IMG/VR virus record: IMGVR_UViG_3300030330_003913
DNA: 64,000 nt
Strand: one strand, 5' to 3'
DNA from: a virus
Taxonomy: Duplodnaviria; Caudoviricetes
Below, one piece after another: positions 50,594 through 61,111 of this stretch. How positions within the stretch are numbered: position 1 is the first letter of the stretch; each line of letters opens with the position of its first letter. The notes under the pieces are model-generated. The model ran no database searches. It was not told where the DNA came from and saw only the letters and a program-made list of their open reading frames with translations. Position numbers and translations under genes: made by a program.

Positions 50594-51034
50594 TCAAAAA
50601 TATTTTTCAATTTTTACTGGTTCTCCGAACATTTCTTTTAAAAATTCTTGAAATTTGTCTTCAGGATAATTAGACCTACCAAGATTCATAAATCTTGTAG
50701 TAATAACAAAATTACCCTTTACATAACCACCCTTTGGGTCAGGCCATCTATCAACTGATGGTGCCTTAATTGAATGTGGTACAAATATTTCATTTAAATC
50801 AATCCTATAATGTGGCATCCAATAGTCACAACCATTTTGTTTATTGAATTGTTCTTCTAAATCATCTCTTGTTATACCAACTTCAAGTTGTTTTTTGTAT
50901 CTGTAGATTCTACCCTCTTTACTTACTGCCAACTCTCTCTTCAGTTTTGAATTTAAATTACCTCTTGTACTACCTTGATTCTGTGATGACATGTTTACAT
51001 TTGACATCATCTTTTTAAATGGGTCTCGTGCCAT
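50594..51034 (-). CDS. His-Me/HNH-like endonuclease
   Basis: PSVDR..P.GGYVKGN......N..R. Confidence 0.6.
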   Translation of the reverse strand: MARDPFKKMMSNVNMSSQNQGSTRGNLNSKLKRELAVSKEGRIYRYKKQLEVGITRDDLEEQFNKQNGCDYWMPHYRIDLNEIFVPHSIKAPSVDRWPDPKGGYVKGNFVITTRFMNLGRSNYPEDKFQEFLKEMFGEPVKIEKYF

Positions 51035-53541
51035 TAGAAAAACCTCTCTATACTTTTTGTTTTATCTACTACATTGTCCCATGACATTGCCTTGTAGAAC
51101 ATACCAATTTTCTTTGTCATTGCCTGTTCAAACATTCTGTCATGGTCAATGTGAGTCTTAATTAATTCTAAAATCTGTGGTGGGTCTTCATAACCTTTAT
51201 ATGCAATCGTATCAAATCCAAACTCATTGTTCTTTAGATACACCCATTTAATCTTACTACCATTTATAATCTTTTCGTATTTCCTACCCTCATACCAATA
51301 TTCTAATAATGAGTTATAATTGATTGATGCCTTAACATGAACAGGTGTTCCTTTTTTATATGTACTGAATGGTGAGTCTTCTTCTTTCACTTCATACTTA
51401 CCAATACCTTTTACACCAATTGGATTTGCCATAACATCATAATGTAAGTTAACCATGTTTCTTTTAAACAATGATATCCTCTCATCAATCTTTTCCTTTG
51501 GAACATCTGCCAAGATATCATCCAATACATTACCCAATAATTCCTTCATCGCAACTGCAAAGTTACTACGAACCGTATCCAATCCTTTAACATGAATCTT
51601 ATTTACCTTACGACCTGCATCATTGATAATTCTTAATCCATATCGTTTCTTCGTAATGAACAACCCACTCTTTGCAACCACCTCTTGTTTAATATCAAAC
51701 ACATGTTTTTCTTTCTCTACATTACAGAACTTCTTACCAAAGAAATTATAACTTTCATTTAGATAATCTTGTACCTCACTACAAATCTCCATAATCCTTT
51801 GAGTCATCATTGTATCACTTAGTTTTTGATTTGGAAATCTCTTCTCAACCAATGGAATAGCAGAGGCAAAAATAGAATCAGTATCTATGTATATCACATA
51901 ATCATCATCAGTACCGAGCTCTTTATTATAAAAATGATTCGTTATCTTCTTACTGAACTTAATTAAGGCTTGACCAGTTAGAGTTGTCGCCTCTGCATTA
52001 TCCAAATCGTAAAATCTAAATACTGATAGACCCAATACACCATACATGGAATTCAAAATAATCTTTTGTATGTATTGTCTTCTATCAAAGTAATCTTCTA
52101 ATTCTTTATTACCTTCATCATGATACTTCTTCACAAGTTTTCTCATCTCAACTCTTTCGTTGAACCACTTAGTTAGAAGTGCAGGAATCAATCCTTGTTT
52201 ATCTGTACGATATAAAACACCATTAGATGCAATACTAATCTCATTGGTTAATAGATAGTTTTCTAATTCACCATTTGTAAACTTACCAATTTCTTTTTCT
52301 TTCTTATCTATCATGGTATATGTTTTTACCAAGTCCTTTTTTAAGAACTCCTCTGCATCCCAACCCTCAACCTTACCTAACTTAGTCTCAGGTGATATGT
52401 TTAATGAACGAATCACACTTGGATACATACTTGTGATATCCAAGTCATAAACCCAATCATGTTTACCTGCCTGTGGTCTCTGTACATATGCACCTGCAAA
52501 CTTATCATCTTCAAATGTTTTTGGTCTTGGTGGTTTGTTGGGGGCAACAATACCAAGTTTTTTCAGATAAACTAATATTGCACCCTCAAGATATCTTGAA
52601 CTCATAAACACTTCTTCATAAGGTATGTGTCCAAGGTGTGCAATACCTCGTGATATCTCAATCAAATTTAATTTCTTATCCAACTCAACTAATATTTTTA
52701 CATCTCGGATGTTGTAATCAATGAATGTCTGTAAGTCATTTTCATACAAGTCATTAAGTGTTCCCTCGTAATCAACCTTTTTCATACCGACTTCTACTTC
52801 ACCAATGTAATCTAATCTATAACTTGATTGTTGAGAGAATGAAAACTTTCTATATAAAGATAGATAGTCTAAACAACTAACTCCTGCAATAACATATCTC
52901 TTTTTAAATTCATTGTAATATACTTCCGAGATAGGTGATAACAAGTTTGCCACACTAACACCCAATACATTTACTGCCCTATTATATAGATAAGGAATAT
53001 CAAAGAAGTCTGAGTTCCAACCACTTAATATTGTTGGTTTGATTTCTAAATACTTTTGGAAAAACTTGTTTAACATTTCATACTCGGTATCATATACCTC
53101 TACAACTTTATTATCTTTTGTATATGATTGAAGTCTTTTCTTTGCATCAAACACATATGTAAAATATGTTTCTGTCATGAAATCATATAGTGCAATAGAA
53201 GTGATTACATTATTTGCCTTCATCACATCAGGAAAACCATCTGTAACCTCTACCTCAATATCAAAGAATACTTTTCTATGTCCATCTGAAACTTCATCTG
53301 AGTCTGTATATTGGTCAACTAAAAATCTTGTTGTTGGTGGGACATCTGATTCATGTAGTGTTGGGTCATCTTTATCATAATTAAATACTTTCTTTACTCT
53401 ATCACCATATAGTGAAACATGTTGACCATTTGTATTTTTTACATAGGCATACTTTTTATATGGAATAATCAAGTATCCCTTTTTGTCATCCCAAAGATGC
53501 ATTTTTTGTTTTCTTACATCAAAGTATATGTTCTGATACAT
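51034..53541 (-). CDS. Family B DNA polymerase (gp43-like)
   Basis: DIEV, FDIPY, DITSMYPS, K...NSMYG, YIDTDS, KKRY. Confidence 0.97.
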   Translation of the reverse strand: MYQNIYFDVRKQKMHLWDDKKGYLIIPYKKYAYVKNTNGQHVSLYGDRVKKVFNYDKDDPTLHESDVPPTTRFLVDQYTDSDEVSDGHRKVFFDIEVEVTDGFPDVMKANNVITSIALYDFMTETYFTYVFDAKKRLQSYTKDNKVVEVYDTEYEMLNKFFQKYLEIKPTILSGWNSDFFDIPYLYNRAVNVLGVSVANLLSPISEVYYNEFKKRYVIAGVSCLDYLSLYRKFSFSQQSSYRLDYIGEVEVGMKKVDYEGTLNDLYENDLQTFIDYNIRDVKILVELDKKLNLIEISRGIAHLGHIPYEEVFMSSRYLEGAILVYLKKLGIVAPNKPPRPKTFEDDKFAGAYVQRPQAGKHDWVYDLDITSMYPSVIRSLNISPETKLGKVEGWDAEEFLKKDLVKTYTMIDKKEKEIGKFTNGELENYLLTNEISIASNGVLYRTDKQGLIPALLTKWFNERVEMRKLVKKYHDEGNKELEDYFDRRQYIQKIILNSMYGVLGLSVFRFYDLDNAEATTLTGQALIKFSKKITNHFYNKELGTDDDYVIYIDTDSIFASAIPLVEKRFPNQKLSDTMMTQRIMEICSEVQDYLNESYNFFGKKFCNVEKEKHVFDIKQEVVAKSGLFITKKRYGLRIINDAGRKVNKIHVKGLDTVRSNFAVAMKELLGNVLDDILADVPKEKIDERISLFKRNMVNLHYDVMANPIGVKGIGKYEVKEEDSPFSTYKKGTPVHVKASINYNSLLEYWYEGRKYEKIINGSKIKWVYLKNNEFGFDTIAYKGYEDPPQILELIKTHIDHDRMFEQAMTKKIGMFYKAMSWDNVVDKTKSIERFF

Positions 53542-53573
53542 TTAGGTTGTAATATCCCTCATTGTTATAACTA

Positions 53574-53605
53574 AATTTAATAATAAAACCATATAAAAGT
53601 CAAGC
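53574..53605 (-). promoter_or_regulatory. Sigma70-type promoter of polB
   Basis: GCTTGACT-N18-TAAATT. Confidence 0.7.
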
Positions 53606-53616
53606 TTTTTTTTTAA

Positions 53617-53645
53617 TAAAATGGGTGGTATATTTCAACCACCCA
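53617..53645 (-). terminator. Intrinsic terminator after TonB-dependent receptor gene
   Basis: TGGGTGGT-N8-ACCACCCA followed by U-run. Confidence 0.8.
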
Positions 53646-53653
53646 AATTACAA

Positions 53654-56389
53654 TTAGAAATTAATAGACACTCCAATGTTTGCGTATCTTGGTGTTCCCA
53701 AGAATACTTCTGCATTGTGTGGTAAGTGTTCCTTAGAACCAAACCCATTGTATCTACTATTATCTACAGCATCTTGTACAAATACTTCATCAAGTGCGTT
53801 GAATACATGAGCAGTTAAAGAAATGTCATGTCCCTTGATAGGAAGTTTATATGATGCATGTAAGTCAAGTTTTGAGTAACCTGGGGCTTCCCAAACTTGA
53901 GCTCTATCTGCTTCTCCATCCTCAATCTCTCTTGCGGCTGGACTCCAATCAGAATAGTTTTTATCATATGTTTTGTATAATGCCTGTAGTCTTAATCCTT
54001 TAACTGGTTTAAGTGTAACACCTAAAATATAGGCGGTTTGTGGCATGTCACCAACATATAAACCATCAAGTGCATATGAATATTCGGTTGATGTTTGACC
54101 AATTACTTGACCTTCATCATTATATTCCATTTCTTGGTAAGTACCATTGGCATCACCATCAAATTTCCAATTACCGAATGACGCGATTAAATCAAGTTCA
54201 ACCAACTCATTTGGTTTTACTTTAGTTTCAATCTCTAAACCTTGATGTTTTTGATTAACACCTTTTAGGAAGATAATATCAGTATCACCTGATGAACCTT
54301 GACCTGTCTCTACTGATTTAGTCAAGTTTCTATCTAACCAATCGGTATTGTATGCACTAACTCTAACTCCAAGTTTGTTAGTACCGAAGTTTGCACCAAT
54401 CTCATTATGTAAGAATTTCTCATTGTCTGGGTCTGATGCTACGGTTCCATCGTAGTAGATAACATTATCTAATATAGGAGCCTTTTGGACATATCCTGTA
54501 TTTAGGAATACTCCAAGATTCTCGTTTACATTATATAATGCACCACCTTTAACTTGGTATGTTGAGATTGGGTCTGCTTTAATTACAGCATCCTCAATAG
54601 TGAAATGGTCTTGGTAAGAATACTCAATAGAAGAAACACCACCCATACCATATAGGTTTAGTTTTTCTGTTGTGTAGTTACCTTGTACGAATCCACCAAT
54701 CCAATCTACGGTTGTTTCATTGAAGTATGCAATCTCGTCACCGAGTCTTACGACTTTACCTTCTTCAAAGTTGTCGTCTGCATAATCAACATAGTAATCA
54801 CCACCTAATAAATCACGAACTTCACGAGCGTGTTCTATACGAGCAGTTCTCCAATCCAATCCAACTTGTAGTTCTAATGCATCACTAACTTCATAGTTTA
54901 ATTTACTAATCAAACCATATGTGTTTTGACGATTTATAGAATTACGAAGAATTCCTGTTGAACGATTTTCTGTTGTTGAGAAGTTCTCATCAATGTTATC
55001 AGAATTTTGAGCAATCTCTGCATTCCAATCCCATTGCCAAGGTGAAGATGCATACCATCTTTCTCCCTCAACTGCAGGTTTTCTACTTACACTACCATAA
55101 GTTCCTGTACCACCACCTGAACCACCACTCCAATATAAAACAGAACTTAATCTTGTTTTATCATTGATGGTTAAGAAGTGATTTAAATTCACTAATGGTT
55201 TGTGGAAGAAGTTTTCTCTTTCGTTCAAGAAGTTCTTGTTGAATCTACTTGTAGTGTTCGCTCCATACATATACCAATATTGTTTACCTGTATATGATGG
55301 GTCAATAGGTGCGACATTTTGATTGAAAAATCTACCAGCTTCAGTTTCAAACTTCTCACCCTCTGAAAATGCAGTAGTATCATATCCATCAATACTACCT
55401 GCCAACTCTTGAGAGTAAGTTGCGATATTCTGTTTGTATAGATTTTGTCCATGTCGTTGTGGAGCACCGATGGCATACAATTCAAATCGTTGGTCTTCAC
55501 TTACTGCATAACTACCACCAAAGTAGTATGCCCAAGCATCAGTCCATGTACCATCTATAATTCCATCACCAGTTTTACGAACAATAGTTCCACTTAAAGC
55601 CAACTTGTCATTTAATAATAGACCAGTATTGTAGTTGAAAGTAGTTTTAAGAAAACCACCATCTCCAGCTTCTTGTTTGAACTTCCCACCTTTTTCAAAA
55701 GATGTAGGGTCGGTTATGATGTTCATAGTTCCACCAATAGAAGGTGTCGCTAAATTAACAGCAGATAGACCTCTTTGAACCTGAATTGAAGATGTAGCAT
55801 CACCTACTCCATCCCAATTAGACCAATAAACCCATCCATTCTCCATGTCATTTTGGGGAACACCATTAATCATCACTGCAACATTTCTTTGATTAAAACC
55901 ACGAATGTTGATACGAGCATCACCCGCACCACCACCTTGTTGTGTTGCATATACTGATGGTGTTGTGTTAAGAATCATTGGAATGTCTTGTGAACCAAGT
56001 CTTACTTCCATTTCTTCTTTACTAACATTAGTATAAGCCACAGGTGTTGTTTCAGATGCACGAGATGCTAACACCTCAACATCTGATAAGGAAACCACAT
56101 CAAAATCCAATACGAAGTTTAATGTAGCGATACCCTCAACAACTACTGATTTAGTTATTGAAGAGTAACCAATGAAAGAAGCCACTACATCATAGGTTCC
56201 ATTAGAAACATCAATAGAAAAAGCACCATCTTTATCTGATACTCCACCTAAATCTGTTCCAAGAACTACAACATTAGCTCCCTCAAGTGGTTTTGAGTCA
56301 ACATCAACAATAGTTCCAACAATAGATTGTGCGAACAATCCTGTCATCAATACCATTGATGCTAATAGATTACGATATTTCATAATCAT
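53654..56389 (-). CDS. TonB-dependent outer membrane receptor with N-terminal carboxypeptidase-regulatory-like domain
   Basis: Signal peptide; PLEGANV..G/SFIGY; plug IRGF...INGVP, GGTMNIIT; terminal F. Confidence 0.93.
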   Translation of the reverse strand: MIMKYRNLLASMVLMTGLFAQSIVGTIVDVDSKPLEGANVVVLGTDLGGVSDKDGAFSIDVSNGTYDVVASFIGYSSITKSVVVEGIATLNFVLDFDVVSLSDVEVLASRASETTPVAYTNVSKEEMEVRLGSQDIPMILNTTPSVYATQQGGGAGDARINIRGFNQRNVAVMINGVPQNDMENGWVYWSNWDGVGDATSSIQVQRGLSAVNLATPSIGGTMNIITDPTSFEKGGKFKQEAGDGGFLKTTFNYNTGLLLNDKLALSGTIVRKTGDGIIDGTWTDAWAYYFGGSYAVSEDQRFELYAIGAPQRHGQNLYKQNIATYSQELAGSIDGYDTTAFSEGEKFETEAGRFFNQNVAPIDPSYTGKQYWYMYGANTTSRFNKNFLNERENFFHKPLVNLNHFLTINDKTRLSSVLYWSGGSGGGTGTYGSVSRKPAVEGERWYASSPWQWDWNAEIAQNSDNIDENFSTTENRSTGILRNSINRQNTYGLISKLNYEVSDALELQVGLDWRTARIEHAREVRDLLGGDYYVDYADDNFEEGKVVRLGDEIAYFNETTVDWIGGFVQGNYTTEKLNLYGMGGVSSIEYSYQDHFTIEDAVIKADPISTYQVKGGALYNVNENLGVFLNTGYVQKAPILDNVIYYDGTVASDPDNEKFLHNEIGANFGTNKLGVRVSAYNTDWLDRNLTKSVETGQGSSGDTDIIFLKGVNQKHQGLEIETKVKPNELVELDLIASFGNWKFDGDANGTYQEMEYNDEGQVIGQTSTEYSYALDGLYVGDMPQTAYILGVTLKPVKGLRLQALYKTYDKNYSDWSPAAREIEDGEADRAQVWEAPGYSKLDLHASYKLPIKGHDISLTAHVFNALDEVFVQDAVDNSRYNGFGSKEHLPHNAEVFLGTPRYANIGVSINF

Positions 56390-56412
56390 CTCCTTGTTTG
56401 TTTACTTGTGAA

Positions 56413-56448
56413 CAGCACATTTTTATTCTGGTGTGCTTTCTGCCAGGG
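56413..56448 (-). ncRNA. Candidate H-type pseudoknot in the receptor leader
   Basis: CUGG-CAGAA-AGCACA-CCAG-AAUAAAAA-UGUGCU. Confidence 0.5.
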
Positions 56449-56460
56449 TATGTGAAATTT

Positions 56461-58485
56461 TTAACCATTCGTATACTCTTGGTCATCATTATCACCTGCG
56501 GTTGGTGTGATTTCTTCAACATCACAGAAGTCACCATCACAGAATTTCTCTATGTTTGCTTCTTCTGCCTTAATAACACCGAATGATAACTTACCAAGTT
56601 TTTTAATTTGTTTGTTATATTCTTTCTCATCTATTGCCTCATATGGCATTTGTGGATATGCACCCCAATCATGTCTTGGTAGTAGTGATATACCCTTTAG
56701 ATGATATTGGAAATAATTCAATACATTTGGTATTTCATCTCCTTCTGTTTCAGGATTGAATGTAACCGTACAACTTACTTGATTATCCGCCCAATGTCTT
56801 TGTAGGAACGCTGCAAGTGAGAATTGTTCCCATATACTTAGGTCTGCAGCAGTTCTGATTCCTTCACCGACATCAACTGGTATCTCTACCACCAATGTAG
56901 AATCCTCAGAACCAAAAGCAGGTTCAATTTTGTAACCTGCTTTCGTTAGTGGTTCTACCAATTCGGAATTAACTGATAATCTTATTCTTCTTATATAAAA
57001 TCTTGATTCGGGATAATGTAAACCTGGAGTACTACCAGCCAATAATGAAACGGTACCACTCGGTTTAACTGATGTAGTCTTGATTGACTTTGGTATAGCA
57101 AACCAATCAGAATATACATCATCCCATTCTTGTATGACATCATATCCATCATTTAACCATTCCTTTAGTTCGTTTAAACCTCTATGTGTTATGAATTGTG
57201 CAACACCACTAACTGAACAACCGATTCTTCTGTTTCTCAACATCACTCTGTTTGTATCACTCCAATGAGTTCTACCAAGAGTTACGGTCTTTGCATATAA
57301 GTATGCATATTTTAGTGTTCGTGCATAATCTTCAAAGTCATCATGGTTATCTGGAAATGTTTCTACTAAACAACATAACTCATAAGACTCTAATGATTGT
57401 TCTAAACATGGATTACCACCCATTACTCTATGGTCTTTGTTATCACCACCATTTTTCATACGAGAATACTTTCTCATATTATCTAACCATGCAAGTCCTG
57501 GTTCTCCATTATCTACTATTCTTTTTGAAACCTCAGTATAATCCATTCCCATCTCTGCAAATATACTATTGTTACTTGTCCAACCATATTGGTCTCTATG
57601 TGGATTTACTTTGTAATTCTTTAAATCTAAATACTCTTCTGAATTAGGGTCACCAAATACAATCTCGGCAGTTCTTCTTACATTACCCGCCACAACACAT
57701 TTACCAATTAGATTCATAATATCTACAATGGTTGTGATTGTGATTGGATTACCAGAATTACCCTCTAATACTTTTCTGATATCTTCGTGAACTTCTTTCA
57801 ATGGTTCTGGTCCTGATGATACTCCACCAAACCCTTTAATTGGAACACCTGCCTCTCTAATTTTACTATAATCAAATTTTACTTTTGGTTGTCCGTGAAA
57901 ATAACTTTCCAATAATAATCTTAATGATTCTACCCAACCCTCACGAGTATCTGGTATTTCATATGTTGTTTCTCTTTCTTCATCAATACCTTTAACAAGT
58001 ATTTCACCTGCTCCTTTGGTATCAAATCCTACACCAACTCCTAACATTGATGCGTCCATTAAGAAACAAAATGGTTTAGAATAATCGTCTTTGATTGTTT
58101 TTGTTGATACAAATGCACAATTGTTTAGTGCCGCGTATAAACCTTTTTCTTCAGTTATTGGTGTTCCCATAGCCCATAAACCACGACCTGGTGGTAAGAA
58201 CTTCATGTTGAAGATTCTCTCATACATATCTTGTGCTGACTTTTGAGCTTGCCATGGATTCCAACCTAATTGATGAGACTCAATGTGATTCATTTGCATA
58301 GAGTAAGTTCCCTCTACAACCCTTTGTACGGTTTCCCACCATCTCTCATTCTTTCCATCTTCCTTAATTCTTGAGTAGGTTCTCATGTATACGAGTTCAC
58401 CTAACCCATTGAAACCAAATGGTGGTTTCTTTCTTTTGTACTTATTTATAAAATTCTCTGATAACTTAAATTTGTGTTGTCCCAT
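56461..58485 (-). CDS. nrdJ: Class II (adenosylcobalamin-dependent) ribonucleotide reductase
   Basis: RTYSR, PPGRG, LNNC, GGNPCLE, LCCLVE, TSVKPSGTVS, C-terminal CDGDFC. Confidence 0.92.
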   Translation of the reverse strand: MGQHKFKLSENFINKYKRKKPPFGFNGLGELVYMRTYSRIKEDGKNERWWETVQRVVEGTYSMQMNHIESHQLGWNPWQAQKSAQDMYERIFNMKFLPPGRGLWAMGTPITEEKGLYAALNNCAFVSTKTIKDDYSKPFCFLMDASMLGVGVGFDTKGAGEILVKGIDEERETTYEIPDTREGWVESLRLLLESYFHGQPKVKFDYSKIREAGVPIKGFGGVSSGPEPLKEVHEDIRKVLEGNSGNPITITTIVDIMNLIGKCVVAGNVRRTAEIVFGDPNSEEYLDLKNYKVNPHRDQYGWTSNNSIFAEMGMDYTEVSKRIVDNGEPGLAWLDNMRKYSRMKNGGDNKDHRVMGGNPCLEQSLESYELCCLVETFPDNHDDFEDYARTLKYAYLYAKTVTLGRTHWSDTNRVMLRNRRIGCSVSGVAQFITHRGLNELKEWLNDGYDVIQEWDDVYSDWFAIPKSIKTTSVKPSGTVSLLAGSTPGLHYPESRFYIRRIRLSVNSELVEPLTKAGYKIEPAFGSEDSTLVVEIPVDVGEGIRTAADLSIWEQFSLAAFLQRHWADNQVSCTVTFNPETEGDEIPNVLNYFQYHLKGISLLPRHDWGAYPQMPYEAIDEKEYNKQIKKLGKLSFGVIKAEEANIEKFCDGDFCDVEEITPTAGDNDDQEYTNG

Positions 58486-58603
58486 TAAAACTGACTCCTA
58501 TATTTTAGATTCTTTTTTCTCTTTAATTAAGTATAATATATACGGAGAATAAATGCACTTTTATTATTTTTTTAGAAGTTTTAATAATTTTTTCTTAGAA
58601 GTT

Positions 58604-59971
58604 TTATTCAAATCCTTCTGAGTCAAAATCCTTTTTCTTCTGTGCCAAGGTTTTACGAATATACTCATCTGCATTATTCATTTTACCTTGTACTTCTCTT
58701 CCACCTTGTGTGTTGGTTTCGTAAATCTGAATGAAACCTGTATTGGTATTAATAGTTGCTGGAAAGGTTATCCCATCAGGCCCAAATCTATTTTTAATAA
58801 CATGGAATCTACCTGTGTTTGCAATCTTATCTTCCACTTTTCTACTCATACTCATGACAAAATCTGAAGTCATGACTTTACTATAATCTTCACTAACCTT
58901 TTCAGCACCAATCACATCTTCTTCTAACGATGAACGATTTGCCTGTGATGCAGTCCATACAGGTATATCAAATTCACCTGCCATACCTCTTAACTCTTCA
59001 TACACATGACCTATCTGATGTCTTTTTTCACTAAAGTGTTGTGTGGATTTCATAATGTCTGCATAATCCACAATCACTAAATCTGGTTTGAGTCCCTGCA
59101 TCTCACATTGTTGTAAATGTGCAGTAAGTGTATTCACACTTGCAGTTCTTGTTGGATAATATTTTATTATCAACTCACCCTTTAGTTTTGAAATCTTATT
59201 TTGTACTTCATCTTTATAATATTGTAAGTTACCTGTTGGTTGTCCACTTATAATGGTATCATATCTCAGTCCAACATATTGTGCATTTAACTCTAATGTA
59301 TAATGTATTACGGTTTTACCTTGTTTGACTGCATGTGCACCTAATGCCTGAAGTGTCCACGATTTACCAATACCAGCAGGTGCAACAATCACACCCAACT
59401 CACCACCTGCAAGTCCACCATCCATCAATTCATTTACACTATCCCATTGTGTTGGTAATGTATTTCTTGATTGTTGTGTTAGTCGTTCTTCCAAACCTGT
59501 AATATAATCATGACCAATGTCTCTCTCTACACCTGCTTTCATTGCATTATCTATAACACCTTTTATCTCATCATACTTTTGATTATCTAATAACTCAACT
59601 GATTCCATAATGGCACTTTTGATAACTTGATTCTTACAGAACTCAAGTGATTTTTCTTTTACAAATTCTAAATCAGGTGATTCACGATGTTGCCATGCAC
59701 CTCGTAATGAATCAATAATACTTGTCTTTAGTACATCATTTTCCACATCATCAATGACAACTTTTAATGCCTCCATTGTTGGTGGGGATTTATACTTTTT
59801 AAAATAATCTATTATTGATTTTACAAGAAACTTGTTTGAATCAGAATCAAAATAACTTACTTCTAAAATGTCACCGATAGTTTTTATAAACTTCGTATCA
59901 ACTATTAAAGATGTAATAATTTTACTCTGAAAAGATGTTCCATATTTAATTAAAGATTCACTCATAACCAT
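58604..59971 (-). CDS. DnaB-like replicative helicase (gp41-like)
   Basis: APAGIGKS, YTLEL, VDYAD, TASQANR, KNRFG. Confidence 0.93.
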   Translation of the reverse strand: MVMSESLIKYGTSFQSKIITSLIVDTKFIKTIGDILEVSYFDSDSNKFLVKSIIDYFKKYKSPPTMEALKVVIDDVENDVLKTSIIDSLRGAWQHRESPDLEFVKEKSLEFCKNQVIKSAIMESVELLDNQKYDEIKGVIDNAMKAGVERDIGHDYITGLEERLTQQSRNTLPTQWDSVNELMDGGLAGGELGVIVAPAGIGKSWTLQALGAHAVKQGKTVIHYTLELNAQYVGLRYDTIISGQPTGNLQYYKDEVQNKISKLKGELIIKYYPTRTASVNTLTAHLQQCEMQGLKPDLVIVDYADIMKSTQHFSEKRHQIGHVYEELRGMAGEFDIPVWTASQANRSSLEEDVIGAEKVSEDYSKVMTSDFVMSMSRKVEDKIANTGRFHVIKNRFGPDGITFPATINTNTGFIQIYETNTQGGREVQGKMNNADEYIRKTLAQKKKDFDSEGFE

Positions 59972-59980
59972 TTATAATTA

Positions 59981-61111
59981 TCATTTAGTTTTCGGAAACA
60001 CACGATTTATTTTATCATTATAGTTTTTTATTTCCTCGTAGTCTCCACTTTCTGTTCCCATAAATTTTAGGATATTATTTAACTCCACTTTTGTTTTTTC
60101 TGTAACTTTATTCATATTTTTTTCAAAAGTATTTGTAACTTTAAACTTTTCTCTCTCATGTAGATTCTGTATACATACTCCATCAGGTGCCCATGCATAA
60201 TGAAATGATATATCATCGGTACTCTTAATAATACCTAAATCAAGGAATTGTTCAATTGATTCAAATATATGATGTATGTTATATGTAGATACGGTATATT
60301 GAATTCCATAGTGAATATCATTTTCTTTTAACTTTTCTATATTCTTTACGAACTTATCATGATTGAAACCTACTCTAATATATTCACCCAAGTCATATAA
60401 CCCATCACAAGATACTGCAATGTAGATAGTACCTTTTTCTTTAATCTTGTTCCAATATTTAAATAATGATTCCTCTTGGTATCTTAATGTAGACATGTTA
60501 GAATTATAATGTAAATGTAACTTTAGTTCTTTATCAGTAACAAATTTTAAGATTTCCATGTGTTCTGGCATAATCAAAGGTTCTCCACCTGCAAAGTATA
60601 TCTTCTTAAGTTTACCCAAATGTTTTTTAAGATTTTCCATAAAGTTATTTTCTACTTTAATAACTTTATTTACATCAGGTGATATACCACCTAATAACAT
60701 TTCAGGTTGATACCAAGATGATGAGAACTCATGACAACATGTCCTACATTTAAAATTACATTGATTTGAAAATCTAATATCAATATACTGAAACTCTAAT
60801 GGAACTTCACCATCAGTAGTTTTTGGTATTTCAAATTCATTGTTATCTGGTTCTAAAAATCCTTGTCGTGCACTAACCTCACCTCTGTCTTCTGCAAGGT
60901 AACAAATATCACATAATTTATTTCTTTCCCCATTCAACATATCCATACGAAGTTTTTTCATTTCTTCTGAATTAAATACTTCACCTATGGATTCTCTGTT
61001 TAAATTATGTGAGTATATAGTTTCTGCAATACAACAAGGTTTCACATGACCTGATGGTTGTGCATATAAATGTACAAATGGTAAGGGACAAAATGTTTTA
61101 CTATTACTCAC
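59981..61111 (-). CDS. Radical SAM protein with N-terminal twitch/SPASM domain
   Basis: CPLPF..KPCC...CDIC; CNFKCRTC; GGEP. Confidence 0.88.
   Translation of the reverse strand: MSNSKTFCPLPFVHLYAQPSGHVKPCCIAETIYSHNLNRESIGEVFNSEEMKKLRMDMLNGERNKLCDICYLAEDRGEVSARQGFLEPDNNEFEIPKTTDGEVPLEFQYIDIRFSNQCNFKCRTCCHEFSSSWYQPEMLLGGISPDVNKVIKVENNFMENLKKHLGKLKKIYFAGGEPLIMPEHMEILKFVTDKELKLHLHYNSNMSTLRYQEESLFKYWNKIKEKGTIYIAVSCDGLYDLGEYIRVGFNHDKFVKNIEKLKENDIHYGIQYTVSTYNIHHIFESIEQFLDLGIIKSTDDISFHYAWAPDGVCIQNLHEREKFKVTNTFEKNMNKVTEKTKVELNNILKFMGTESGDYEEIKNYNDKINRVFPKTK

What the first reader, a model, noticed from the sequence alone, without database searches (positions are those of the whole stretch)
53617..58485. 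Intact TonB-dependent receptor directly behind a B12-dependent RNR in the replication core
Seen: nrdJ, then a 71-nt spacer with no terminator evident, then a 911-aa receptor with signal peptide and terminal Phe, then a terminator before the polB promoter. Known: NrdJ needs adenosylcobalamin, and cobalamin enters via TonB-dependent receptors. Inference: the phage may import its own cofactor or another nutrient. Alternatively the protein is a receptor decoy. The ligand cannot be read from the sequence.
Basis: partly seen in the sequence, partly recalled or inferred. Interest (0 to 1): 0.7.

Follow-up and report, generated by a model that had tools for sequence, protein, structure and literature searches.

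The report
Phage-borne host outer-membrane importer gene
A widespread group of marine T4-like phages, probably infecting SAR406 (Marinimicrobia) bacteria, carries a working copy of one of the host's outer-membrane nutrient importers just behind its B12-dependent ribonucleotide reductase; it is not the host's vitamin B12 importer, and gene neighbourhoods point tentatively to uptake of nucleotide-like phosphorus compounds for phage DNA synthesis.

Summary
On the minus strand, a class II (RTPR-type) nrdJ is followed without a terminator by an intact TonB-dependent transporter (TBDT), then a terminator and polB. Two corrections: the conserved start is the second ATG (909 aa, 77-nt spacer), and the spacer holds a covarying H-type pseudoknot.

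The gene is conserved in at least 324 IMG/VR contigs and evolves under purifying selection (dN/dS 0.12-0.19). Its surface loops are as conserved as its barrel strands. Phage copies form one clade nested inside Marinimicrobia TBDTs (61-73% identity).

The B12 reading is not supported. The same Marinimicrobia genomes keep their single cobalamin riboswitch in front of a different, BtuB-like ~700-aa receptor. The phage-type orthologues have no riboswitch and no BtuB signature.

In other FCB phyla the orthologue is followed, apparently in an operon, by an exported nucleotide pyrophosphatase/phosphodiesterase (11 loci, 5 phyla). In related phages the slot after the TBDT holds dUTPase, thymidylate synthase and a PNKP-type phosphatase. 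My best reading is an auxiliary importer with the host orthologue's substrate, possibly nucleotide or organophosphate. The substrate is inferred, not shown.

This scan has found the same cassette on other DNA (e1-4702854, e1-5342264, e1-5810317). Phage TBDTs are already reported from megaphages.

The parts
56461..58485 (-). nrdJ: monomeric class II (RTPR-type) adenosylcobalamin-dependent ribonucleotide reductase, 674 aa, directly upstream of the receptor
   Evidence: Pfam RNR_Alpha and RNR-II_ins_dom. NCBIfam TIGR02505 scores 359 bits against a cut-off of 340.
56384..56460 (-). 77-nt leader of the receptor gene. It has no terminator. RBS AAGGAG is at 56395-56390. A TTCACATAC box, seen in many relatives, follows the nrdJ stop.
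   Evidence: Sequence, terminator scan and leaders of relatives.
56414..56446 (-). H-type pseudoknot. P1 is CTGG 56446-56443 with CCAG 56431-56428; L1 is CAGAA. P2 is AGCACA 56437-56432 with TGTGCT 56419-56414; L3 is AATAAAAA.
   Evidence: On 44 distinct leaders, 96.9% of cells pair. Six of 11 pairs show double changes, with 39 such cells against 9 in shuffles, and slid partners collapse. The covariance model gives one strong hit in the window and in each of 45 phage loci searched, and only one weak hit (L095, E 0.39) in 80 cellular loci. There is no Rfam match.
53654..56383 (-). TonB-dependent transporter gene, 909 aa from the conserved second ATG (911 aa from 56389), stop included
56327..56383 (-). 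Signal peptide, residues 1-19, ending LFAQ before S20
   Evidence: By inspection; conserved in phage and Marinimicrobia copies. No signal-peptide predictor was available.
56099..56326 (-). N-terminal CarboxypepD_reg-like extension domain, residues 20-95
   Evidence: Pfam PF13715 at 59 bits. Modelled as a beta sandwich.
56060..56086 (-). TonB box region, SDVEVLASR (residues 100-108). EVLASR is invariant in phage and host copies.
   Evidence: Alignment.
55610..56053 (-). Plug domain, residues about 111-258: 89% identical among phages and 86% identical phage to host
   Evidence: Pfam PF07715, model, regional identities.
53657..55603 (-). 22-strand beta barrel, residues about 261-909, with long surface loops and a terminal Phe
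   Evidence: AlphaFold model with pLDDT 86 and pTM 0.81. Foldseek matches TBDTs at E 1e-39.
53622..53645 (-). Intrinsic terminator after the receptor gene
   Evidence: Terminator scan: 8 pairs, 5 of them GC, then a T run.
51034..53603 (-). Promoter-like site (53603-53574) and polB, the downstream neighbour

Best explanation
This is an auxiliary host-derived gene. One specific TonB-dependent outer-membrane transporter of Marinimicrobia (SAR406) was captured once by an ancestor of this T4-like phage lineage and has been kept functional since.

Proposed working: the gene is transcribed with, or just after, nrdJ in the replication and nucleotide-metabolism module. The product is exported through Sec, inserted by the host BAM machinery and energised by the host TonB, since its TonB box is identical to the host's. 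It then imports the same substrate as the host orthologue, raising uptake during a long infection. Translation is probably controlled through a phage-specific pseudoknot about 20 nt upstream of the RBS.

The substrate is not cobalamin. The most likely class, inferred at roughly 35%, is nucleic-acid-derived organophosphate (nucleotides, short oligonucleotides or similar phosphodiesters), which would feed phosphorus and dNTP precursors into phage DNA synthesis.

Shown: intactness, conservation, origin, purifying selection, fold, absence of BtuB features, and covariation in the leader. Inferred: expression timing, transport activity, substrate, and what binds the pseudoknot.
For: Phage setting:
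- UvsX, exonuclease, DnaB-like helicase, clamp loader and polB surround the gene. The best cultured polB match is Microcystis phage Mel-JY01 at 44%.

Conservation:
- 324 IMG/VR contigs encode a relative. In 80 of 80 loci the synteny is nrdJ-TBDT.
- 39 of 40 polB relatives with enough upstream DNA carry it.

Origin:
- The phage copies form one clade (SH 94) nested in Marinimicrobia.
- The Marinimicrobia orthologue is mostly single copy, present in 74 of 151 genomes of the phylum. Its surroundings there are chromosomal housekeeping genes.

Constraint:
- dN/dS is 0.12-0.19.
- The plug is 89% identical, and surface loops are as conserved as strands (ratio 0.13). The phage-to-host pattern mirrors host-to-host.
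- The TonB box EVLASR, the signal peptide and the terminal Phe are conserved.

Fold:
- pLDDT 86, plug plus 22 strands.

Substrate hints:
- An exported PF01663 nucleotide pyrophosphatase/phosphodiesterase lies directly downstream on the same strand. In nine of the ten loci measured the gap is 4-114 nt (327 nt in L104). This holds in 11 loci from 5 phyla.
- A deoxynucleoside kinase is adjacent in 4 Marinimicrobia genomes.
- In related phages the slot after the TBDT holds dUTPase, thymidylate synthase, a PNKP-type phosphatase and an AAA_28 (kinase-like) protein.
- TBDTs sitting beside or induced together with phosphoesterases under phosphate starvation are documented in Flavobacterium (PMC8115612) and Caulobacter (10.1101/2023.10.07.561339).

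Leader:
-.

RNA libraries:
- Contigs identical to the window cover the CDS in two runs of one study. One contig in another study bridges the nrdJ end, the leader and the TBDT start.
Against: - No transport or binding data exist for any member of this orthologue family, so the substrate rests on neighbourhood alone.
- The phosphodiesterase partner is seen mostly in phyla other than Marinimicrobia (1 of 30 extra Marinimicrobia loci). The dNK link did not recur in that wider sample.
- Three Calditrichia loci put a ccm (haem-handling) operon after the gene instead.
- No phosphodiesterase or dNK was found in the window or in the flanks of the first 80 phage loci, L002-L081.
- Nucleotide genes cluster near polB in many T4-like phages anyway, so the phage context may be an insertion accident.
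- The RNA evidence consists of assembled contigs from RNA libraries, which may contain DNA, so transcription is not proven.
- One relative lacks the gene, so it is dispensable.
Confidence: 0.6

Rival explanations
1. Cobalamin importer: the phage raises B12 uptake to supply its adenosylcobalamin-dependent NrdJ.
For: nrdJ is directly upstream in 71 of 75 loci, with no terminator between the two genes. NrdJ of the RTPR type needs adenosylcobalamin (established knowledge). A paper on RTPR virioplankton speculates about enhanced B12 uptake (10.1101/2023.03.13.532061).
Against: - The host's only cobalamin riboswitch precedes another, BtuB-like receptor.
- There is no riboswitch at the phage gene or at its 10 nearest cellular orthologues.
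- There is no BtuB NCBIfam hit. BtuB ranks 39th by fold and matches weakly by sequence, in the plug only.
- No partner gene found beside the orthologues is a cobalamin gene.
- The cassette also exists away from nrdJ, and nrdJ exists without it.
Confidence: 0.07
2. Importer of some other nutrient (iron or haem, peptides, glycans or another scarce compound) with no special link to nucleotide supply. The position behind nrdJ is then an accident of where the gene was inserted.
For: - The fold matches are generic, with siderophore and PQQ transporters on top.
- A ccm operon follows the orthologue in three Calditrichia loci.
- Most Marinimicrobia orthologues sit among unrelated housekeeping genes.
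Against: The recurrent partner across five phyla is a nucleotide pyrophosphatase/phosphodiesterase. No SusD, siderophore or peptide-uptake partner was seen among the neighbours annotated.
Confidence: 0.22
3. Surface remodelling rather than nutrition. The phage copy would displace or mask a host receptor used by this or competing phages (superinfection exclusion), or act as a decoy.
For: TBDTs are common phage receptors. The huge-phage outer-membrane-protein preprint proposes receptor interference for phage barrel proteins (10.64898/2026.10.24.761521). According to earlier notes of this scan, this phage also carries pilins, glycosyltransferases and sugar pathways.
Against: Surface loops are as conserved as strands, with dN/dS 0.13 and no loop above 0.18. 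The phage-to-host divergence pattern equals the host-to-host pattern, so there is no sign of an arms race or of a changed surface. The plug and TonB box, which matter only for transport, are the most conserved parts.
Confidence: 0.09
4. Not a phage gene at all: a chimeric assembly, host contamination or a decaying passenger.
For: Some copies are filed under bacterial MAGs, for example one named Flavobacteriales.
Against: The same junctions recur in hundreds of independent contigs from many samples. The gene carries a phage-specific leader, was intact in every locus from which a full frame could be extracted, and is under purifying selection.
Confidence: 0.02

Closest known systems
TonB-dependent receptor genes of megaphages and huge phages: the SusC-like gene of marine Mar_Mega_1 and LR745206 (PMC9723777), and the 22-stranded receptor of Lak phages in the huge-phage outer-membrane-protein survey (bioRxiv 10.64898/2026.10.24.761521)
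   Same: A tailed phage encodes a full-length 22-strand TonB-dependent outer-membrane protein with a signal peptide. It is read as an auxiliary uptake or envelope gene, and RNA evidence exists for some of these genes.
   Different: - By tblastn, those records match only the plug region at about 28-31% identity, so they are separate acquisitions.
- This gene is in a T4-like lineage tied to SAR406 and is conserved in hundreds of contigs at one genomic position.
- It has its own covarying pseudoknot leader and has a traceable single-copy host orthologue.
The orthologous TonB-dependent transporter of Marinimicrobia and other FCB-group and Gemmatimonadota bacteria (uncharacterised; for example L089, L091, L083)
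   Same: - 61-73% identity over the full length.
- The same domain order: signal peptide, CarboxypepD_reg-like domain, TonB box, plug, barrel.
- An identical TonB box and the same pattern of constraint.
   Different: The cellular genes lack the pseudoknot leader. They sit among housekeeping genes or before a nucleotide pyrophosphatase/phosphodiesterase, not behind an RNR.
BtuB, the cobalamin outer-membrane transporter (E. coli 1NQE; NCBIfam TIGR01779)
   Different: BtuB is about 600 aa and lacks the N-terminal extension. The phage protein gives no family-level match and has no riboswitch. The host has a separate riboswitch-controlled BtuB-like gene.
Phosphate-starvation-induced TonB-dependent transporters and PusCD systems that sit with phosphoesterases in Flavobacterium (PMC8115612), and PhoB-regulon TBDTs of Caulobacter (10.1101/2023.10.07.561339). 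Also cyanophage phosphate-acquisition genes such as pstS (my own knowledge).
   Same: An outer-membrane TBDT paired with an exported phosphodiesterase or nucleotide pyrophosphatase. Phages are known to boost host phosphorus acquisition during infection.
   Different: Orthology to any of those characterised transporters was not tested. The phage carries only the transporter, not the hydrolase. Phosphate regulation is not shown.
Translational operator of T4 gene 32, and small pseudoknot riboswitches (preQ1-I, SAM-II), as models for the leader
   Same: A compact H-type pseudoknot with an A-rich third loop lies some 20 nt upstream of an unstructured A-rich stretch that runs into the RBS. That is the layout of the gene 32 operator (my own knowledge).
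   Different: No Rfam family matches. The RBS is not part of the knot. No second copy was found elsewhere in the window or in 45 phage loci, so no shared regulon is visible. The binding partner is unknown.

Membership tests
TonB-dependent transporter superfamily | N-terminal Sec signal peptide | tested here: met
   By inspection, a hydrophobic N-terminus ends LFAQ before S20 and is conserved in phage and host copies. No predictor was available.
TonB-dependent transporter superfamily | TonB box before the plug | tested here: met
   SDVEVLASR. EVLASR is invariant in 8 phage and 7 Marinimicrobia sequences.
TonB-dependent transporter superfamily | Plug domain (PF07715) | tested here: met
   57.7 bits against a cut-off of 23.9.
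TonB-dependent transporter superfamily | 22-strand beta barrel ending in an aromatic residue | tested here: met
   AlphaFold model with pLDDT 86. Counting from the C-terminus, 22 strands alternate short turns with long loops. Foldseek E is 1e-39 to solved TBDTs. The terminal residue is Phe.
TonB-dependent transporter superfamily | TonB- and pmf-dependent substrate uptake | not testable with these tools
   Needs transport or binding assays.
BtuB (cobalamin transporter) | Match to the BtuB equivalog models (TIGR01779, NF007926) | tested here: not met
   No hit at E up to 0.01 for the phage protein. The riboswitch-linked Marinimicrobia receptors do have these models as their best hits, though below the cut-off.
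BtuB (cobalamin transporter) | Cobalamin riboswitch in the leader (usual, not obligatory) | tested here: not met
   No RF00174 in window 53000-59000 at E up to 1, nor in 10 Marinimicrobia orthologue loci. Four of five of those genomes have one elsewhere.
BtuB (cobalamin transporter) | Orthology to the host's cobalamin receptor | tested here: not met
   Only 21% identity over 217 N-terminal residues to the riboswitch-linked receptor. The true orthologue is a different gene.
BtuB (cobalamin transporter) | Corrinoid binding | not testable with these tools
   Needs a binding assay.
SusC/RagA family | Full-length match to TIGR04056 | tested here: not met
   66.7 bits against a cut-off of 368, over the N-terminal 160 residues only.
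SusC/RagA family | Adjacent SusD-like lipoprotein gene | tested here: not met
   The phage neighbours are nrdJ and polB. The annotated cellular neighbours are a phosphodiesterase, dNK, SRAP and others, none SusD-like.
Phage auxiliary (host-derived) gene | Lies inside phage DNA between phage core genes, repeatedly | tested here: met
   80 of 80 loci, 68 of 68 leader instances and 39 of 40 polB relatives.
Phage auxiliary (host-derived) gene | Phage copies nested within a cellular clade | tested here: met
   A FastTree of 103 sequences gives one phage clade (SH 94) inside Marinimicrobia. The root is not inferred. No AU test was run.
Phage auxiliary (host-derived) gene | Kept under purifying selection | tested here: met
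   dN/dS is 0.12-0.19 in 15 pairs and at most 0.37 in every region.
Phage auxiliary (host-derived) gene | Expressed during infection | tested here: inconclusive
   Contigs from RNA libraries of three studies match the gene, and some are identical. They are assembled contigs, and DNA carry-over cannot be excluded.
Known pseudoknot riboswitches (preQ1, SAM-II/V and others) for the leader | Match to the Rfam covariance model | tested here: not met
   No such hit at E up to 1 in 53000-59000.

The most novel reading that the evidence does not exclude
The phage makes its host scavenge extracellular nucleotides or DNA fragments. In this reading the captured transporter imports nucleic-acid-derived organophosphate. 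The phage-specific pseudoknot leader is a sensor, either a new small riboswitch or a gene-32-type operator bound by the phage single-strand-binding protein. That sensor would couple production of the importer to the state of the dNTP pool or of replication. This would be a new class of auxiliary function, outer-membrane nucleotide uptake, with its own RNA control. It would also assign a substrate to a transporter family conserved across the FCB group.
Probability: 0.15. Interest if true: 0.85.

Novelty: new variant of a known kind. Interest (0 to 1): 0.6.

Why it matters
SAR406 is abundant in the dark ocean and uncultured, and I know of no phage isolated on it. This gene ties a very widespread T4-like phage group to that host.

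It also shows that a phage can keep a 900-residue outer-membrane transporter working over long evolutionary time, which implies that uptake across the outer membrane limits phage production in these cells.

The finding removes an attractive but unsupported story, that the phage imports B12 for its own RNR. In its place it offers a testable one: organophosphate or nucleotide uptake, linked to a transporter family whose substrate is unknown in five phyla.

The conserved pseudoknot is a compact, well-supported candidate regulatory RNA with no Rfam family.

Tried and rejected
IMG/VR and GTDB loci were used instead.
- The window's own assembly is not held.
- Pfam does not recognise the barrel. The barrel rests on the model.
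- The PDB sequence search gave only N-terminal or plug matches; the best was 9gbc_A, whose function is unknown to me. Foldseek ranks many siderophore transporters equally, so the fold says nothing about the ligand.
- tblastn for the phosphodiesterase and dNK in the window and the flanks of the first 80 phage loci (L002-L081) found nothing.
- The phage nrdJ was not found in five Marinimicrobia genomes with this query. That is no evidence of absence. It only gives no support to the idea that nrdJ and the receptor came together from the host.
- PF02867 was not found on the four fragments where the cassette lies away from nrdJ. These fragments are 11-32% complete, so this does not show that those phages lack an RNR.
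- RNA-library contigs did not cover nrdJ or polB in three of four runs. Per the tool's own caution, a part without cover is not evidence, and depth cannot rank genes.
- The dNK adjacency seen in 4 Marinimicrobia genomes did not recur in 30 further genomes. I keep it only as a weak hint.
- Literature searches for this specific lineage or cassette found nothing beyond the megaphage reports.
Full report
**Observation**

Every ORF of 100 aa or more in the window lies on the minus strand, apart from four short plus-strand frames that sit inside or overlap minus-strand ORFs.

- **nrdJ.** The 674-aa ORF at 56461-58485 is a class II ribonucleotide reductase of the monomeric RTPR type. It has Pfam RNR_Alpha and RNR-II_ins_dom, and NCBIfam TIGR02505 at 359 bits against a cut-off of 340.
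- **The receptor.** It is followed by an ORF at 53654-56389 with a CarboxypepD_reg-like domain, a Plug domain and a C-terminal Phe.
- **Terminator and polB.** The consensus scan finds no terminator between the two genes. It finds a good one (8 pairs, then a T run) at 53645-53622, right after the receptor stop. A promoter-like site and polB follow.

Two points need amending.

- AAGGAG abuts the first ATG, and relatives lack that ATG. The conserved start is 56383, which gives 909 aa and a 77-nt leader.
- The leader is not empty (see "The leader RNA").

**What the element is**

The surroundings are a T4-like replication module: a UvsX-like recombinase, an exonuclease, a radical SAM protein, a DnaB-like helicase, nrdJ, the receptor, polB and a clamp loader. 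The nearest cultured polB is that of Microcystis phage Mel-JY01 at 44%.

The receptor is far from unique to this window.

- More than 120 protein clusters at 81-100% identity exist in marine metagenomes.
- 324 IMG/VR contigs encode a relative.
- In all 80 loci fetched, the receptor lies directly after nrdJ wherever upstream DNA is present. It usually lies before polB.
- nrdJ (78-99% identity to the window) and the receptor (72-99%) stay similar in phages whose polB, helicase and exonuclease have fallen to 26-60%. The receptor figures are biased by how the loci were chosen; the nrdJ figures are not.

**Origin**

A scan of one genome per species with a family alignment returned 80 cellular loci.

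- The ten best (61-72% identity) are almost all labelled Marinimicrobia/Neomarinimicrobiota, including a single-cell genome.
- They have no phage genes around them and G+C from 30 to 57%.
- They sit among chromosomal genes: dnaG, yqeY, cvpA, an epimerase, a tRNA, an SRAP peptidase, DUF3228 and an S58 peptidase.
- Other FCB-group and Gemmatimonadota genomes hold orthologues at 40-51% identity.

In a FastTree of 37 non-redundant phage and 66 cellular sequences, the phage copies form one clade (SH-like 94). It is nested several starred nodes deep inside the Marinimicrobia sequences.

Within that phylum the orthologue was found in 74 of 151 sampled genomes, mostly once per genome, at 52-73% identity. 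Each genome carries 8-24 Plug-domain receptors in all. So the phage holds one particular, widely conserved member of the host's receptor set.

**Is it functional?**

- The gene was intact in every locus from which a full frame could be extracted.
- Pairwise dN/dS against 15 relatives is 0.12-0.19 at dS 0.3-1.6.
- An AlphaFold model built from a 42-sequence alignment is confident (pLDDT 86, pTM 0.81). It shows the N-terminal beta-sandwich domain, a plug, and 22 strands with alternating short turns and long loops.
- Foldseek matches solved TonB-dependent transporters at E 1e-39.
- I split the protein by that topology. The plug is the most conserved part: 89% identity among phages, 86% phage to host, 87% host to host.
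- The putative surface loops are as conserved as the strands (77% against 76%; dN/dS 0.13), and no loop exceeds 0.18.
- The phage-to-host profile mirrors the host-to-host profile.
- The TonB box EVLASR, the signal-peptide end LFAQ|S and the terminal Phe are shared by phage and host copies.

This is what a transporter that still does the host orthologue's job should look like. It is not what a decoy or a surface under an arms race should look like.

**The B12 hypothesis**

I tested this before reading any earlier report.

- Rfam finds no cobalamin riboswitch, and no other known family, in 53000-59000. It finds only tRNAs in the ten Marinimicrobia orthologue loci.
- Four of five of those same genomes do contain one RF00174 riboswitch each.
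- In all four genomes the gene behind the riboswitch is a different receptor of about 700 aa (truncated in one). In the three complete copies the best NCBIfam matches are the BtuB models.
- In two of the three loci with downstream sequence (L167, L169) a DUF5074 protein follows that receptor.
- The phage protein aligns to that receptor over only 217 N-terminal residues at 21% identity.
- The phage protein gives no BtuB model hit. Its SusC model score is far below the cut-off.
- BtuB is unremarkable among the fold matches, at rank 39, and among the sequence matches, with plug only at E about 2e-4.

The host therefore has a dedicated cobalamin-regulated receptor, and the phage did not take that one.

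The linkage to nrdJ is also not absolute.

- Of 75 leader-plus-receptor units with enough upstream DNA, four lie in other contexts. They sit on fragments of 19-57 kb that have no RNR domain.
- One relative (L379, nrdJ 87% identical) has nrdJ followed directly by a terminator and the polB promoter region. It has no receptor anywhere on a 96-kb fragment.

**What might it carry?**

No member of this orthologue family is characterised, to my knowledge, so only context is available.

*In cellular genomes.* I clustered the neighbours in the 80 cellular loci.

- The most recurrent partner is a ~400-aa protein directly downstream on the same strand. In nine of the ten loci measured the gap is 4-114 nt (327 nt in L104). 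It occurs in ten loci from Bacteroidota, Ignavibacteriota, Calditrichota and Chlorobiota.
- The two members I annotated are type I phosphodiesterase/nucleotide pyrophosphatases (PF01663, E 5e-97 and 1e-87). The cluster members have signal peptides or lipoprotein-like N-termini.
- An eleventh case turned up in the Marinimicrobia phylum (L313).
- In four Marinimicrobia genomes a deoxynucleoside kinase is adjacent, in three of them directly downstream. This did not recur in 30 further genomes, so it is weak.
- A thioredoxin-reductase-like gene precedes the receptor in two loci (L115, L118). Its family member in a third locus (L113), several genes upstream, is the copy that was annotated.
- A ccm operon follows it in three Calditrichia loci.

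*In the phages.* The variable slot between the receptor and polB holds the following in different relatives:

- dUTPase (5 loci);
- thymidylate synthase (3 loci);
- a PNKP-type HAD phosphatase (3 loci);
- an AAA_28 (kinase-like) protein (4 loci);
- a glutamine-synthetase-like protein (5 loci).

So the receptor lies in a nucleotide-metabolism island.

*Published parallels.* In Flavobacterium, TonB-dependent transporters are induced by phosphate starvation, and the Pus transporter clusters sit beside phosphoesterases (PMC8115612). In Caulobacter, TBDTs and a nucleotide pyrophosphatase both belong to the PhoB regulon (10.1101/2023.10.07.561339).

From this I infer, at about one chance in three, that the substrate is a nucleic-acid-derived organophosphate. 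The benefit to the phage would be phosphorus and precursors for DNA synthesis. This is inference, and other nutrients remain open.

**The leader RNA**

- On 44 distinct leaders from relatives, 96.9% of cells form standard pairs.
- Six of eleven pairs show compensatory double changes, with 39 such cells against 9 in shuffles. Sliding the partners by one to three columns collapses pairing to 19-52%.
- The first-loop bases CAG and the A-run of the third loop are nearly invariant.
- A covariance model finds exactly one strong hit in the window and in each of 45 phage loci, always at the receptor leader. It finds nothing convincing in 80 cellular loci.
- An exact-pattern scan of IMG/VR found the motif followed by the receptor gene in 68 of 68 cases.

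The knot therefore arose in the phage lineage and belongs to this gene. It ends about 20 nt before the RBS and does not include it. This layout recalls the T4 gene 32 operator more than an RBS-sequestering riboswitch (my own knowledge). What binds it is unknown.

**Expression**

Near-identical DNA is present in marine metagenomes from at least five studies, and pieces occur in RNA libraries.

- Contigs from two metatranscriptome runs of one study match the receptor CDS without mismatches.
- Two further studies give near-identical pieces.
- One contig bridges 56282-56665, that is, the nrdJ end, the leader and the receptor start.

These are assembled contigs, and DNA carry-over cannot be excluded. 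I count this as weak support for transcription and for co-transcription with nrdJ.

**Comparison and novelty**

Phage-encoded TonB-dependent receptors have been reported.

- A SusC-like gene occurs in the marine megaphage Mar_Mega_1 and in LR745206 (PMC9723777).
- 22-stranded receptors occur in Lak and other huge phages (10.64898/2026.10.24.761521).

Those records match this protein only in the plug at about 30% identity, so they are independent captures. I found no paper describing this lineage or cassette.

This scan itself has met the same cassette on other genomes. Those follow-up reports reached the same main conclusions: SAR406 origin, own pseudoknot, not the B12 importer, and can be lost. 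My B12, origin and leader tests were made before I read them. The loss test was prompted by one of them.

New here, as far as I can tell:

- the phosphodiesterase partner of the cellular orthologues;
- the nucleotide-metabolism content of the adjoining phage slot;
- the region-by-region selection analysis.

**Limits**

- The tree is a FastTree without an AU test or an outgroup.
- The topology classes come from a predicted model.
- The substrate is inferred from neighbours only.
- Transcription is not proven.

Noticed in passing
L018, L064, L078 compared with the window: Receptor identity does not track the phage backbone. L078 has a close backbone (uvsX 92%, helicase 85%, polB 79%) but a receptor at 72%. 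L018 has a distant backbone (helicase 59%, polB 60%) but a receptor at 81%. This suggests exchange of receptor (and nrdJ) alleles between phage lineages.
   Followed up: no
L004 (2450-9926) and L079 (2795-6281): In these relatives the nrdJ match is split into two or three pieces separated by about 1-1.5 kb. In L004 the helicase is split too. These look like inserted introns, inteins or homing elements in core replication genes.
   Followed up: no
L379 4400-4570: A relative with nrdJ 87% identical has nrdJ, then a GGGGGGA...TCCCCCC terminator, then the same AAAAGCTTGACTTT polB promoter region. It has no leader or receptor on a 96-kb fragment. This gives clean boundaries for the leader-plus-receptor cassette.
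   Followed up: yes
L188, L205, L229, L245: The leader-plus-receptor unit lies in a different genomic context, after unannotated ORFs of 143-287 aa. L188 also carries a peptide deformylase gene further downstream. The cassette has moved at least once.
   Followed up: partly
L166 3012-5129(-), L167 3055-5106(-), L169 189-2312(+): Marinimicrobia genomes carry one cobalamin riboswitch in front of a ~700-aa BtuB-like receptor. In L167 and L169 a DUF5074 protein follows it; the one in L169 carries a T9SS sorting domain. This is a candidate B12 capture system of SAR406.
   Followed up: partly
window 56448-56456(-) and the leaders of many relatives: A conserved TTCACATAC box lies just after the nrdJ stop in many loci but not all. 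Its CACAT could pair with the ATGTG of the pseudoknot's 3' strand. It may be an alternative structure, a promoter element or a processing site.
   Followed up: no
L027, L033, L042, L045, L053, L073 between the receptor and polB: This is a hypervariable slot. In different relatives it holds dUTPase, thymidylate synthase, a PNKP-type HAD phosphatase, an AAA_28 (kinase-like) protein, a glutamine-synthetase-like protein or a 504-aa unknown.
   Followed up: partly
window 59981-61111(-): A radical SAM/SPASM protein lies between the exonuclease and the helicase. In relatives (L009, L010, L021) the same slot holds a paralogue of the 406-aa methylase-like ORF instead.
   Followed up: no
L093, L098, L146: In Calditrichia the orthologous receptor is followed by a complete ccmABCEF cytochrome c maturation operon. 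This context signal differs from the phosphodiesterase seen elsewhere.
   Followed up: no
L084: A contig filed under a Winogradskyella MAG carries a Marinimicrobia-type receptor (66% identity) and groups with Marinimicrobia in the tree. It is probably a mis-binned contig.
   Followed up: no
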